From a virus (lineage: Duplodnaviria > Heunggongvirae > Uroviricota > Caudoviricetes), in IMG/VR virus record IMGVR_UViG_2850784384_000005: DNA of 17,981 nucleotides; one strand, 5' to 3'. Of the stretch, positions 14,190 through 14,844 are shown piece after piece (within the stretch, counting starts at the first letter, position 1; the number at the start of each line of letters is the position of its first letter). Below the pieces are notes generated by a model. It saw only the letters and a list, made by a program, of their open reading frames with translations. It was not told where the DNA came from and did no database searches. The translations under genes were made by a program, and so were the position numbers.

Positions 14190-14269
14190 AACGGCTCCTA
14201 GTTTACGTTGTTGGTTAGAAGCCCCGTTACTGCTCCTACAGTGCGGGGCTTTGCTTTTTGTGTTGATTG

Positions 14270-14316
14270 TGTGTAATGTGTCACTACACATAAATACATT
14301 ACCTGAGGTGTAATTA
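14270..14316. promoter_or_regulatory. Divergent promoter/operator region between the Arc-like gene and the replication operon
   Basis: Palindrome ATGTGTcactACACAT (14276-14291), ATTAC-N7-GTAAT dyad (14298-14314) overlapping the Arc Shine-Dalgarno, and GTGTAAT direct repeats. Confidence 0.4.
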
Positions 14317-14318
14317 AC

Positions 14319-14498
14319 GTGTCAACACACAAAAACGAAAGGCGTGGTAATCCTCCGTTCCAGTTCCGTTTAGATCCTGACTTACGGGAAAAGATGGAAA
14401 AGGCACAACAACAGGACGGCGATGATTCTCTTGCTGCCTGGATAAAGCGAATAATCCGCAAAGAATTACAGCAACGCGGCATAGAACCCAAAGGATAA
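14319..14498 (+). CDS. Arc/MetJ-type ribbon-helix-helix repressor, 59 aa, GTG start
   Basis: Not in the ORF track (under 60 aa, GTG start). GAGGTG Shine-Dalgarno 8 nt upstream. Translation MSTHKNERRGNPPFQFRLDPDLREKMEKAQQQDGDDSLAAWIKRIIRKELQQRGIEPKG aligns by eye with the P22 Arc beta-strand and two helices (PQFNLRWPREVLDLVRKVAEENGRSVNSEIYQRVMESF). Confidence 0.5.
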   Translation: MSTHKNERRGNPPFQFRLDPDLREKMEKAQQQDGDDSLAAWIKRIIRKELQQRGIEPKG

Positions 14499-14844
14499 AA
14501 ACTATCAGCGCCGTGGTGTGAGGTACTACGGCGCATTGCTTTACAGGCGCACACAATGACCAACGAAGAATCAACCGAAAAAACATCACCTGCACGAAAA
14601 AGACGACGCAGAAAGAAAGAGCATGAATCAGAACGATTCGCGCCGTGTTCTTTTGCCCTTGAGAAGTACCTTAAAGAATACTCATCAAAGGAGAGAACTT
14701 CGCAGTTATGGCAACGCACTGAACCAGACTGATTGCATTGCCCACCAGCCTGATAGCGGCTATCATCCCCGTGCTTATGTTTGGGATCACACACACAAAC
14801 GGCGCAGCGGGTTATCTGTTCAGAAAGGCGGCTCCATTTCGGGG

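What the first reader, a model, noticed from the sequence alone, without database searches (positions are those of the whole stretch)
14198..14500. Arc-like repressor divergent from the replication operon: candidate master repressor
An unannotated 59-aa GTG-start ORF on the + strand aligns with P22 Arc, has a good Shine-Dalgarno, and sits back-to-back with the Icd-like/primase operon across a region of palindromes and GTAAT/ATTAC half-sites. A second terminator-like hairpin (AGCCCCG ... CGGGGCT, 14220-14250) lies just upstream. This arrangement is analogous to the Stl-type repressor of Gram-positive PICIs, whereas Gram-negative PICIs are usually described as AlpA-controlled. If real, the island may have dual control. 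The roughly 330 bp between Arc and its terminator holds only weak ORFs (58 aa at 14556-14732, 74 aa at 14623-14847), which could hide a small partner gene.
Basis: partly seen in the sequence, partly recalled or inferred. Interest (0 to 1): 0.6.

Follow-up and report, generated by a model that had tools for sequence, protein, structure and literature searches.

The report
Satellite repressor gene plus antisense RNA
The small gene is real and encodes an Arc/Mnt-like DNA-binding repressor that, with a previously undescribed antisense RNA, probably forms the missing "immunity switch" of Gram-negative phage satellites, including the laboratory prototype EcCICFT073, which carries an equivalent cassette.

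Summary
The 59-aa ORF (14319-14498, +) is a real gene. It stays open in 79 of 80 related loci from three bacterial orders, and it has a ribbon-helix-helix (RHH) signature. Two exact palindromes, GTGTCA-NN-ACAC (O1 14278-14289, O2 14319-14330), are its likely operators. Five variants of the DNA-reading strand each come with their own duplicated palindrome. O2 covers the start codon and a TTGACA on the opposite strand that is present in 69 of 70 loci, the likely -35 of the leftward replication/packaging promoter.

The upstream hairpin (14218-14252) is the terminator of a candidate ~77-nt cis-antisense RNA that covers the ribosome site of the Icd-like gene. It has strong covariation and is absent from Rfam.

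The whole cassette lies antisense inside a long minus-strand ORF that runs from alpA to the Icd-like gene. Stop codons in that ORF are avoided well beyond chance. This matches the eta/kil layout of satellite P4, but the immunity parts differ.

EcCICFT073 has the same layout with a different small RHH-like gene. "Master repressor" remains an inference, because AlpA overexpression alone induces EcCICFT073. This copy of the island is decayed (IS1, IS4, split capsid gene), and the "terminator" at 14849-14874 is IS4 sequence.

The parts
14319..14498 (+). Arc/Mnt-like ribbon-helix-helix (RHH) gene, 59 aa, GTG start. The predicted DNA-reading strand is PPFQFRLD (residues 12-19). Helices span residues 20-33 and 38-52.
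14305..14308 (+). Shine-Dalgarno GAGG of the RHH gene, 10 nt before the GTG
   Evidence: position conserved (GGGTG/GAGTG) in type A loci
14278..14289 (.). Operator O1, GTGTCACTACAC (palindrome GTGT-N4-ACAC). It lies over the inferred start points of both promoters.
14319..14330 (.). Operator O2, GTGTCAACACAC. It overlaps the GTG start codon and the -35 of the leftward promoter. The first four codons are invariant even at third positions.
14296..14325 (-). Candidate leftward promoter P_L. The -35 TTGACA is at 14325-14320, the spacer is 18 bp, and the -10 TAATGT is at 14301-14296. The inferred start is near 14289.
   Evidence: TTGACA in 69/70 loci of all five types, with TAnnnT 17-18 bp away
14251..14279 (+). 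Candidate promoter P_R of the RHH gene. The -35 TTGCTT is at 14251-14256, in the terminator tail. The spacer is 17 bp and the -10 TAATGT is at 14274-14279, abutting O1.
   Evidence: same layout in types A, B, D; inference
14148..14176 (+). Candidate promoter P_as of the antisense RNA. The -35 TTGTGT is at 14148-14153 and the -10 TATGAT at 14171-14176, inside the first codons of the Icd-like gene.
   Evidence: TAnnnT in 66/67 loci, 63 of them exactly 8 nt before GCCA; background 10%
14183..14259 (+). Candidate ~77-nt cis-antisense RNA. SL1 (14184-14216) has the anti-SD sequence CUCCU in its loop. SL2 (14218-14252) is the terminator hairpin, followed by a U tract to 14259. The RNA is complementary to the SD and start codon of the Icd-like gene.
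   Evidence: no Rfam family
13989..14189 (-). Icd-like (Kil-like) gene, 66 aa, first gene of the leftward operon. Its SD AGGAG is at 14199-14195.
   Evidence: NF033153, E 6e-18
14198..14794 (-). Body of the eta-like minus-strand ORF, fully antisense to the RHH gene and ORF2. Its stop codon UAG (14200-14198) overlaps the SD of the Icd-like gene. IS4 has cut off its N-terminus.
16243..16383 (-). N-terminal fragment of the eta-like ORF (MKIEYTPERGRGFVRP...), now running into IS4
   Evidence: the intact 248-aa ORF in L002
14508..14534 (+). Terminator-like hairpin directly after the RHH gene. It is also conserved in EcCICFT073 and O157 islands.
14556..14732 (+). ORF2, a 58-aa basic protein of unknown function (phrog_21027), found only in Escherichia/Shigella
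14845..16270 (-). IS4 insertion (1426 bp) with a 13-bp target duplication at 14832-14844 and 16271-16283. It separates alpA from the cassette and contains the hairpin at 14849-14874.
16441..16629 (-). alpA (62 aa), convergent with the RHH gene
17004..17981 (-). Tyrosine integrase, cut by the end of the window
12582..13349 (-). IS1 insertion (768 bp) inside the leftward operon

Best explanation
The ORF encodes a small Arc/Mnt-like ribbon-helix-helix repressor that belongs to the immunity switch of a capsid-forming phage satellite (cf-PICI).

Shown here: the gene is real and RHH-like. Two type-specific palindromes lie over conserved promoter-like elements. A structured plus-strand RNA with its own conserved -10 box and terminator overlaps the ribosome site of the first leftward gene. 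The minus-strand frame across the whole cassette is kept free of stop codons.

Inferred: dimers of the protein bind O1 and O2. O1 lies on the start points of two face-to-face promoters. O2 lies on the -35 of the leftward promoter P_L and on the repressor's own start codon. Binding therefore shuts off P_L, which drives the Icd-like, replication and packaging genes, and also limits the repressor's own synthesis. A constitutive ~77-nt antisense RNA pairs with the leader of any P_L transcript. It blocks translation of the Icd-like gene, and probably causes polarity on the genes downstream.

Induction would work as in satellite P4. AlpA activates its own promoter, and that transcript reads leftwards through the cassette. 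Ribosomes translating the long eta-like ORF protect the transcript from termination. They also strip off the antisense RNA and deliver translation to the Icd-like start, either by stop/SD overlap or by in-frame fusion. This route bypasses both repressive layers, and the convergent transcription silences the repressor gene.

In this window the switch is broken. IS4 separates alpA from the cassette, and IS1 interrupts the operon.
For: Real gene. There are 116 homolog clusters across Enterobacterales, Pasteurellales and Orbales. The frame is open in 79/80 loci, whereas the antisense frame has stops in 24/79.

Operators. There are only two sites in 18 kb, both exact and 41 bp apart. Each of the five strand types (A, A2, B, C, D) has its own duplicated palindrome: GTGTCAnnACAC, TTGTAATTACAA, TGGTnATTACCA and so on. 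The spacing is about 3 or 4 helical turns, and the second copy is at the start codon. A ~240-bp cassette (14220-14459) is swapped between flanks that are 96-100% identical.

Promoters.

Antisense RNA. In the consensus structure 97.5% of cells are paired and 14/21 pairs show compensatory change; 0/500 shuffles reach this, and slid controls give 37-53%. There are 219 G.U cells on the plus strand against 3 A.C cells, so the RNA is plus-strand. The -10 box is at a fixed distance in 63/67 loci. The fold is -30.5 kcal/mol, z -4.2.

eta-like ORF. T-ending codons are used at 10% of stop-prone positions against 36% elsewhere; the control genes show 35.5% against 33.3%. 56/79 coding sequences have no antisense stop, against 28-32 expected. 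The non-coding stretch is open in this frame in 41/61 loci, against 0/61 and 14/61 in the other two frames. The ORF starts at the alpA stop and ends on the SD of the first gene or fuses to it in 33/60 loci. The same layout is seen over unrelated YlcI-like cassettes in EcCICFT073 and Nissle.

P4 precedent: PMC10111431, summarising Forti 1999. AlpA dependence of induction: PMC6092414.
Against: No binding, transcript or phenotype data exist for this protein or this RNA. The query itself has no Pfam hit and is below the NCBIfam cutoff. Foldseek E-values are not significant. The monomer model shows no beta strand.

Operator and strand type are physically adjacent, so their co-variation is partly due to linkage.

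The promoter assignments are consensus readings. The tool's own scan did not report them, and the type A -10 boxes are weak.

AlpA overexpression alone induces EcCICFT073, so the repressor is not an absolute block.

In Xenorhabdus a bidirectional-looking terminator lies between alpA and the RHH gene. In 18 of the 60 classed loci (24 of all 79) the eta-like frame has stops inside the RHH gene. Read-through therefore cannot be universal.

The statistics on stop avoidance are not corrected for phylogeny.
Confidence: 0.6

Rival explanations
1. The RHH protein is only a local autoregulator or accessory regulator. It could be a Cro-like or copy-control factor that acts after induction, or a superinfection-immunity determinant towards related satellites. 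Quiescence of the island would then depend on AlpA being off, together with the antisense RNA.
For: AlpA is necessary for induction of EcCICFT073 and EcCIEDL933, and sufficient for EcCICFT073. The operators occur only at the protein's own promoter region. The type-specific cassettes resemble immunity or incompatibility determinants. pMV158 CopG plus RNAII is a copy-control pair of the same composition.
Against: O1 and O2 also cover the conserved -35 and start region of the only recognisable promoter of the replication/packaging operon. The gene is disrupted in only 1 of 80 loci.
Confidence: 0.22
2. The 59-aa ORF is a non-coding shadow of the long minus-strand (eta-like / 'Icd-like') gene, which some pipelines annotate instead.
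For: PGAP annotates the antisense ORF as an 'Icd-like' pseudogene in O157 and Nissle. The antisense ORF has 998 database proteins matching it. The antisense frame is kept open beyond chance.
Against: The plus frame is open in 79/80 loci, against 55/79 for the minus frame. The plus-strand product has RHH homology and fold. The antisense translation is Cys/Ser/Arg-rich and has no family hit in that segment. The start codon, SD, length and stop are conserved. Operators and promoters lie inside the supposed coding region.
Confidence: 0.04
3. The RHH protein is the antitoxin of a type II toxin-antitoxin pair, and ORF2 (14556-14732) is the toxin that stabilises the island.
For: Many RHH proteins are antitoxins encoded upstream of their toxin. 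There are weak hits to VapB, MazE and TacA-type antitoxins.
Against: ORF2 is found only in Escherichia/Shigella, while the RHH family spans three orders. ORF2 also follows unrelated YlcI-like genes. A terminator separates the two genes. ORF2 has no toxin family hit.
Confidence: 0.03
4. The hairpin and its neighbour are elements of the leftward mRNA leader. They would form a same-strand attenuator or a processed CI/C4-like immunity RNA as in P4 and P1, not an antisense RNA.
For: P4 and P1 use same-strand RNAs at the equivalent place. One relative (L080) carries C4 and isrK in the leftward operon. The hairpin would also form, imperfectly, in the minus-strand RNA (82% of cells paired).
Against: There are 219 G.U cells against 3 A.C cells, which favours the plus strand. 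The U tract follows the stem only on the plus strand. A -10 box at a fixed distance lies on the plus strand. There is no C4 or isrK match at this site in the window or in 15 loci.
Confidence: 0.08

Closest known systems
Satellite phage P4 immunity region: vis(alpA)-eta/kil with the internal promoter PLE and CI RNA (Forti et al. 1999, as summarised in PMC10111431)
   Same: A long ORF follows the alpA homolog and is coupled to it. Its C-terminal part is a small nested Kil/Icd-like gene that is translated from an internal promoter. The immunity determinants lie inside the long ORF. The long frame must stay open, and here this appears as stop-codon avoidance.
   Different: P4 immunity is a same-strand processed RNA (CI, Rfam C4) that pairs with seqA/seqC. 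Here there is no C4 or isrK match. Instead, a protein repressor gene, its promoter, its operators and a cis-antisense RNA are encoded on the opposite strand inside the ORF.
Phage P22 immI region: Arc and Mnt repressors plus sar antisense RNA (own knowledge)
   Same: Small RHH repressors bind palindromic operators over overlapping, oppositely oriented promoters. A ~70-nt antisense RNA covers the ribosome site of the regulated gene. The protein aligns in register with the Arc and Mnt beta strand.
   Different: The protein has no Pfam Arc hit. The gene order differs. The regulated operon encodes replication and packaging functions, not an antirepressor. The family is almost absent from phage genomes, with 4 of 50,697 records.
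Plasmid pMV158 CopG (RHH) plus antisense RNAII control of repB (PMC4485353)
   Same: Replication genes are under dual control by an RHH transcriptional repressor and a small antisense RNA that blocks translation.
   Different: In pMV158, copG is co-transcribed with repB. There is no nested long ORF and no AlpA-type activator.
SaPI/PICI master repressor Stl/Rpr of Gram-positive cocci (PMC6092414)
   Same: It is a repressor gene divergent from the replication/packaging operon of a phage satellite.
   Different: Stl is described as being transcribed in the same direction as int and is, to my knowledge, not an RHH protein. It is relieved by binding a helper-phage protein. Here the gene is a 59-aa RHH protein convergent with alpA/int, and induction goes through AlpA.
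YlcI/YnfO family (NF041551; phrog_949), as in the EcCICFT073 and Nissle islands
   Same: These genes occupy the same position and orientation, and in EcCICFT073 have the same size (59 aa). They share the flanking antisense RNA, terminator and ORF2. There is weak mutual similarity (E 5e-4; phrog_949 E 0.046).
   Different: The match is below the curated cutoff (20 against 30 bits). The candidate operators differ (direct repeats AGGTGTGGCCCAC in EcCICFT073).

Membership tests
Ribbon-helix-helix (Arc/MetJ) superfamily | Strand-helix-helix topology of about 45 residues | tested here: met
Ribbon-helix-helix (Arc/MetJ) superfamily | Significant profile similarity to known RHH families | tested here: met
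   PHROG 228 'Arc-like repressor' at E 2.2e-6, and E 1.5e-6 for the type D homolog. Distant family members hit Pfam HicB, RHH_1, RHH_4, RHH_5, RHH_10, NikA-like and Omega. The query itself has no Pfam hit.
Ribbon-helix-helix (Arc/MetJ) superfamily | Dimer that inserts a two-stranded sheet into the major groove of a repeated or palindromic operator | not testable with these tools
   Only indirect evidence is available. Arg17 in the strand is invariant. Type-specific duplicated palindromes are present.
Pfam Arc (P22 Arc repressor family) | Match to the Pfam Arc model above the gathering score | tested here: not met
   No Pfam family is found at E <= 10 except a chance Mistic hit. Pairwise hhalign to Arc gives only P 3e-3.
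YlcI/YnfO family (NF041551) | Score at or above the curated cutoff of 30 bits | tested here: not met
   20 bits, E 5e-4.
P4-type immunity region | Long ORF after the alpA homolog whose 3' part is a nested Kil/Icd-like gene | tested here: met
   In the window the ORF is 14198-14794(-), with its stop on the SD of the Icd-like gene. The intact form is 248 aa in L002. In-frame fusions of 428 aa (EcCICFT073) and 355 aa (Nissle) also occur. In this window IS4 has detached it from alpA.
P4-type immunity region | CI/C4-type same-strand immunity RNA with seqA/seqC targets | tested here: not met
   There is no C4 or isrK hit in the window at gathering score or at E <= 10. Only 1 of 15 related loci has them, and elsewhere in the operon.
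P4-type immunity region | Translation of the long ORF prevents Rho-dependent termination of the upstream-promoter transcript | not testable with these tools
   Indirect evidence: stop-codon avoidance in that frame.
Stl/Rpr-type PICI master repressor | Transcribed in the same direction as int and divergent from the replication operon | tested here: not met
   The gene is divergent from the replication operon but convergent with alpA and int.
Stl/Rpr-type PICI master repressor | Repression lifted by binding of a helper-phage protein | not testable with these tools
   No data.
Type II toxin-antitoxin antitoxin | Conserved adjacent toxin gene in one operon | tested here: not met
   ORF2 is absent outside Escherichia/Shigella. 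It is separated from the RHH gene by a terminator and has no toxin family hit.
Capsid-forming PICI (cf-PICI) | int, alpA and primase together with its own capsid, protease, portal, connector and large terminase genes, and no tail or lysis genes | tested here: met
   The island lies next to phoQ, as EcCICFT073 does.
Any Rfam family (for the antisense RNA) | Covariance-model match | tested here: not met
   The only match is a chance terminator-driven hit to the rnk leader at E 0.16.

The most novel reading that the evidence does not exclude
Gram-negative PICIs and cf-PICIs, including the prototype EcCICFT073, do have a repressor system, contrary to the current AlpA-only picture. It is an exchangeable ~240-bp immunity cassette. 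The cassette holds a small RHH repressor with type-specific operators, plus a conserved cis-antisense RNA. It is nested on the opposite strand inside an eta-like ORF, and selection keeps that ORF free of stop codons. AlpA-driven, ribosome-protected transcription can therefore run through the cassette and override it. The cassette types would define immunity groups among satellites.
Probability: 0.35. Interest if true: 0.8.

Novelty: new variant of a known kind. Interest (0 to 1): 0.7.

Why it matters
[quoted passage not shown] This locus offers a concrete, testable candidate. It is present in about a fifth of complete E. coli genomes (1172 of 5426), and in cf-PICIs of Enterobacterales, Pasteurellales and Orbales. 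EcCICFT073 has an equivalent cassette at the same place.

The locus also contains three other items of interest:
- a structured antisense RNA with strong covariation that is not in Rfam;
- a rare case of a complete gene, with promoter, operators and terminator, nested antisense inside an ORF that is selected to stay open;
- a source of systematic mis-annotation, in which pipelines call the antisense ORF 'Icd-like' and miss the repressor.

Knowing the switch would help in engineering PICI-based delivery vehicles and in predicting which satellites exclude each other.

Tried and rejected
- The similarity between the hairpin loop CCGTTACTGCTCCTA and the Icd ribosome site CCATAACGGCTCCTA (D2) suggested a decoy or anti-RBS. 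It is not conserved in other loci, so I dropped it.
- The Rfam hits to the rnk leader, narK, EBV sisRNA and CRISPR-DR10 are chance or terminator-driven.
- I looked for a LexA box in the hairpin loop (TACTG-N6-CAGT). The spacing is wrong, so there is no SOS box.
- Profile searches of the PDB with the narrow alignment A1 gave only NsrR noise. The broader alignment A3 was needed.
- I first took simple read-through from alpA as the general override. This was weakened by the bidirectional-looking terminator in Xenorhabdus and by loci with stops in the eta-like frame. It is kept only as the P4-like model for the E. coli-type islands.
- Codon-position variability cannot separate the two strands, because the third positions of the two frames coincide. 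The crude pN/pS values (0.365 sense, 0.526 antisense) are weak evidence, and some shifted sequences inflated them.
- A tblastn search for ORF2 and for the 74-aa ORF (14623-14847) in the 80 loci found them only in L002.
- The Forti 1999 paper is not held in the library. It is cited through Mageeney 2023 and from my own recollection.
- I did not attempt a dimer or DNA-complex structure prediction, because the tool takes single chains only.
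Full report
CONTEXT. The window starts with the 3' part of phoQ (1-1461, +). A capsid-forming phage satellite (cf-PICI) follows, read on the minus strand. It encodes large terminase, HNH, connector, head completion, portal, protease and a split capsid gene. It also encodes a D5-type primase, DUF4222, small ORFs, an Icd-like gene, alpA and an integrase. 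Two insertion sequences interrupt it. IS1 lies at 12582-13349. IS4 lies at 14845-16270, with a 13-bp target duplication. An intact copy without either IS is present in Shigella flexneri SFBU1023 (L002). EcCICFT073, the prototype Gram-negative PICI, also lies next to phoQ in E. coli CFT073.

OBSERVATION. The ORF (14319-14498, GTG start, 59 aa), the GAGG 10 nt upstream, the hairpin at 14218-14252 with its T-rich tail, and the GTAATGT/ACATTAC repeats are all present. Three details need correction.
- The Icd-like gene starts at ATG 14189, so the hairpin lies in its leader.
- A terminator-like hairpin follows the ORF directly (14508-14534), and the hairpin at 14849-14874 is IS4 sequence.
- The 58-aa ORF2 is annotated in RefSeq relatives and conserved as a protein.

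IS IT A GENE? The protein has 116 homolog clusters in Escherichia, Shigella, Serratia, Pantoea, Yersinia, Xenorhabdus, Pasteurella, Gilliamella and others. I fetched 80 related loci, one per species.
- The reading frame is open in 79 of the 80 loci. The antisense frame whose third positions coincide with it has 1-4 stops in 24 of 79.
- The family is narrow. Only 48 clusters at 50% identity match among 1.84 billion proteins.
- The family is almost absent from true phages. It matches 4 of 50,697 records, one of them a 15-kb Pasteurella satellite.

IS IT AN RHH PROTEIN?
- Pfam gives nothing for the query, but PHROG 228 'Arc-like repressor' matches at E 2.2e-6.
- hhalign places PPFQFRL on the DNA-reading strand of Arc (P 3e-3) and of Mnt (P 8.5e-4, 42 columns, 29% identity).
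- More distant members of the family hit Pfam HicB, RHH_1, RHH_4, RHH_5, RHH_10, NikA-like and Omega.
- A profile of the family finds almost only RHH chains in the PDB, such as SvtR, VapB26, HP0222, NikA, CopG, MazE7 and ArtA.
- The AlphaFold model (pLDDT 81.6) has helices at residues 20-33 and 38-52.
I file it as a new small family within the RHH superfamily. It is not a member of Pfam Arc or of YlcI/YnfO (20 bits against a cutoff of 30).

OPERATORS AND PROMOTERS.
- GTGTCANNACAC occurs twice in the window, both times exactly, at 14278 and 14319. The 21-nt unit around it has 2 matches against 0.01 expected.
- Across loci the N-terminal strand comes in five types: PPFQFRL, PFQLRL, KQIALRV, DQYQIRL and PQYQMRL. 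The C-terminal helix is nearly constant.
- Each type has its own palindrome, present twice. These are GTGTCAyyACAC (40-41 bp apart), TTGTAATTACAA (31-35 bp), TGGTnATTACCA (30-31 bp) and a GACAnGTGTCA form.
- The second copy always lies at the start codon.
- The first four codons are invariant even at third positions. Codons 1-3 read TTGACA on the minus strand in 69 of 70 loci, with a TAnnnT box 17-18 bp further on. I read this as the leftward promoter P_L.
- A plus-strand -35/-10 pair (TTGnnn in the terminator tail, 17 bp, then TAATGT/TAAAAT/TACACT abutting O1) recurs at the same place in several types. I read this as the repressor's own promoter P_R.
- These promoter assignments are consensus readings, not measurements.
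- Between the window and an O157:H7 island, the segment 14220-14459 is 46-80% identical, while both flanks are 96-100% identical. The hairpin, the operators and the N-terminal 47 codons therefore travel as an exchangeable cassette.

THE UPSTREAM HAIRPIN IS THE END OF AN ANTISENSE RNA. I aligned 67 distinct loci from the -10 box to the T tract. The consensus structure has three helices.
- 97.5% of cells are paired and 14 of 21 pairs show compensatory changes, in 139 cells. No shuffle out of 500 reaches this, and slid controls give 37-53% paired.
- Read on the plus strand there are 219 G.U cells and 3 A.C cells. The structure is therefore 97.5% paired on the plus strand and 82.1% on the minus strand. 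The T tract also follows the stem only on the plus strand.
- A TAnnnT box lies upstream in 66 of 67 loci, exactly 8 nt before GCCA in 63 of them, against a background of 10%. It is a perfect extended -10 (TGGTATAAT) in the Nissle island.
- The predicted RNA (window ~14183-14259) folds into two stem-loops (-30.5 kcal/mol, z -4.2). The anti-SD sequence CUCCU sits in the first loop.
- The RNA is fully complementary to the SD and start codon of the Icd-like gene.
- No Rfam family matches it.

THE ANTISENSE FRAME IS NOT NOISE. The minus-strand frame over the RHH gene is open much more often than expected.
- Codons that precede CA- or TA-starting codons end in T in 10% of cases, against 36% elsewhere. 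In 140 long control genes from the same loci the figures are 35.5% and 33.3%. Those genes average 2.1 antisense stops per 59 codons.
- 56 of 79 coding sequences have no antisense stop, against 28.3 +/- 3.9 or 32.2 +/- 3.4 under two kinds of synonymous randomisation.
- In the non-coding stretch between the two start codons, this frame is open in 41 of 61 loci. The other two minus-strand frames are open in 0 and 14 of 61.
- Where alpA is adjacent, the ORF begins at or over the alpA stop codon.
- The ORF ends either fused in frame to the first leftward gene (19 loci) or with its stop codon on that gene's SD (14 loci). In the window this reads ACUAGGAGCCGUUAUGG.
- The same holds over unrelated cassettes. 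EcCICFT073 has a 428-aa ORF from 53 nt after alpA to the end of the Icd-like gene, and Nissle has a 355-aa one.
- Only the ends of these ORFs hit protein families. The N-terminus has an Ant/Bro-N-like fragment and the C-terminus is Icd-like. The middle is Cys/Ser/Arg-rich with no hit.
- These statistics are not corrected for phylogeny. The third positions involved do vary freely among A, G and C.

HOW IT MOST LIKELY WORKS. This is the layout described for satellite P4. There, eta follows the alpA homolog and is translationally coupled to it. A constitutive promoter lies inside eta, and Kil is the truncated C-terminal product. Translation of eta from the upstream promoter prevents termination (Forti 1999, as summarised in PMC10111431).

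The immunity parts differ here. P4 uses the same-strand CI RNA. This island instead carries an opposite-strand RHH gene with operators on the internal promoter, plus a cis-antisense RNA on the Kil/Icd ribosome site. The nearest functional parallels for that pair are P22 immI (Arc/Mnt and sar; own knowledge) and pMV158 CopG plus RNAII (PMC4485353).

I infer the following sequence.
1. The RHH protein represses P_L and its own promoter.
2. The antisense RNA blocks translation of any escaping P_L transcript.
3. AlpA-driven transcription, protected by ribosomes translating the eta-like ORF, bypasses both layers.

The published record fits this model. AlpA activates its own promoter and a fusion to 'ORF3', and AlpA overexpression alone induces EcCICFT073 (PMC6092414). 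That same result shows that the repressor is not an absolute block.

Two observations show that read-through is not universal. Xenorhabdus has a bidirectional-looking terminator between alpA and the RHH gene. The eta-like frame has stops inside the RHH gene in 24 of the 79 loci (18 of the 60 loci classed).

RIVALS.
- A purely local or accessory regulator is the serious alternative (0.22).
- A shadow ORF (0.04) is excluded by the frame counts and the fold.
- A toxin-antitoxin pair (0.03) is excluded by the distribution of ORF2.
- A same-strand leader RNA (0.08) is disfavoured by the G.U asymmetry.

LITERATURE. In the library searched, no paper links Gram-negative PICIs with an RHH repressor or with this antisense RNA. 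The 2018 paper calls the existence of a repressor unclear. Mageeney et al. 2023 describe a 'Bro zone' with C4/isrK immunity RNAs in some PICIs, which is a different element.

VERDICT. The 'master repressor, Stl-like' reading is only partly right. What is there is a new variant of the P4-type immunity region, with a protein-plus-antisense-RNA cassette nested inside an eta-like ORF. This particular copy is inactivated by IS4 and IS1.

Noticed in passing
window 14845-16270 (target duplications at 14832-14844 and 16271-16283): A complete 1426-bp IS4 is inserted into the native terminator of the rightward unit. It cuts the eta-like ORF and the whole cassette off from alpA. The hairpin at 14849-14874 is the left end of IS4.
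   Followed up: yes
window 12582-13349: A 768-bp IS1 is inserted between the DUF4222/primase genes and the small ORFs downstream of the Icd-like gene. It should be polar on the replication operon.
   Followed up: partly
window 7639-8844 (-): The major capsid gene is split into two ORFs (7969-8844 and 7639-7968) that match the N- and C-terminal halves of Pfam Phage_capsid. The island is probably defective.
   Followed up: no
L083:3181-3354 (O157:H7 strain 2-6-2) and L082:4365-4844 (Nissle 1917): RefSeq/PGAP annotates the antisense ORF as an 'Icd-like protein' pseudogene. In O157:H7 it leaves the RHH gene unannotated. Many database 'Icd-like' or 'ash family' proteins of 310-434 aa are this long ORF.
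   Followed up: yes
L085:9931-20655 (E. coli CFT073, NC_004431.1 1377930-1388654): EcCICFT073 lies next to phoQ, like the island in the window. It has the same antisense RNA, terminator and ORF2. Its cassette encodes a 59-aa YlcI/YnfO-type protein (phrog_949), with direct repeats AGGTGTGGCCCAC as candidate operators.
   Followed up: partly
L021 and L030 (Citrobacter), about 60-140 nt upstream of the RHH gene: The 3' end of a second RHH gene of another type lies directly upstream. These loci therefore carry two tandem cassettes or a recombination scar.
   Followed up: no
L029:4001-4006 (Citrobacter murliniae): This is the only locus in which the RHH gene is disrupted (GTG TAA at codon 2).
   Followed up: no
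L080:3504-3723 (Testudinibacter): Rfam C4 (66.9 bits) and isrK (58.4 bits) lie in the leftward operation just downstream of the first gene of the operon. An RHH cassette and a P4-type RNA immunity system can therefore coexist.
   Followed up: no
L005:6713-6780, L080:6529-6594, L066:6912-6977, L051:7763-7830: The Rfam int-alpA RNA motif (RF02996) is present in four related loci but is not detected in the window.
   Followed up: no
window 14460-14498 and all loci: The C-terminal helix and tail (WIKRIIRKELQQRGIEPKG) are nearly invariant across all five operator types and three bacterial orders, while the N-terminal half varies. This could be a recombination junction, an oligomerisation surface or a partner-binding surface.
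   Followed up: partly
window 14556-14732: ORF2 encodes a small basic protein (SPARKRRRRK...ERFAPCxFALE) conserved only in Escherichia/Shigella islands. It follows either Arc-like or YlcI-like genes. Its function is unknown.
   Followed up: partly
L010:4238-4681 (+): A 147-aa hydrophobic ORF sits between the RHH gene and alpA in a Citrobacter island. Other loci also carry variable cargo at this position, which could be an accessory or defence gene slot.
   Followed up: no
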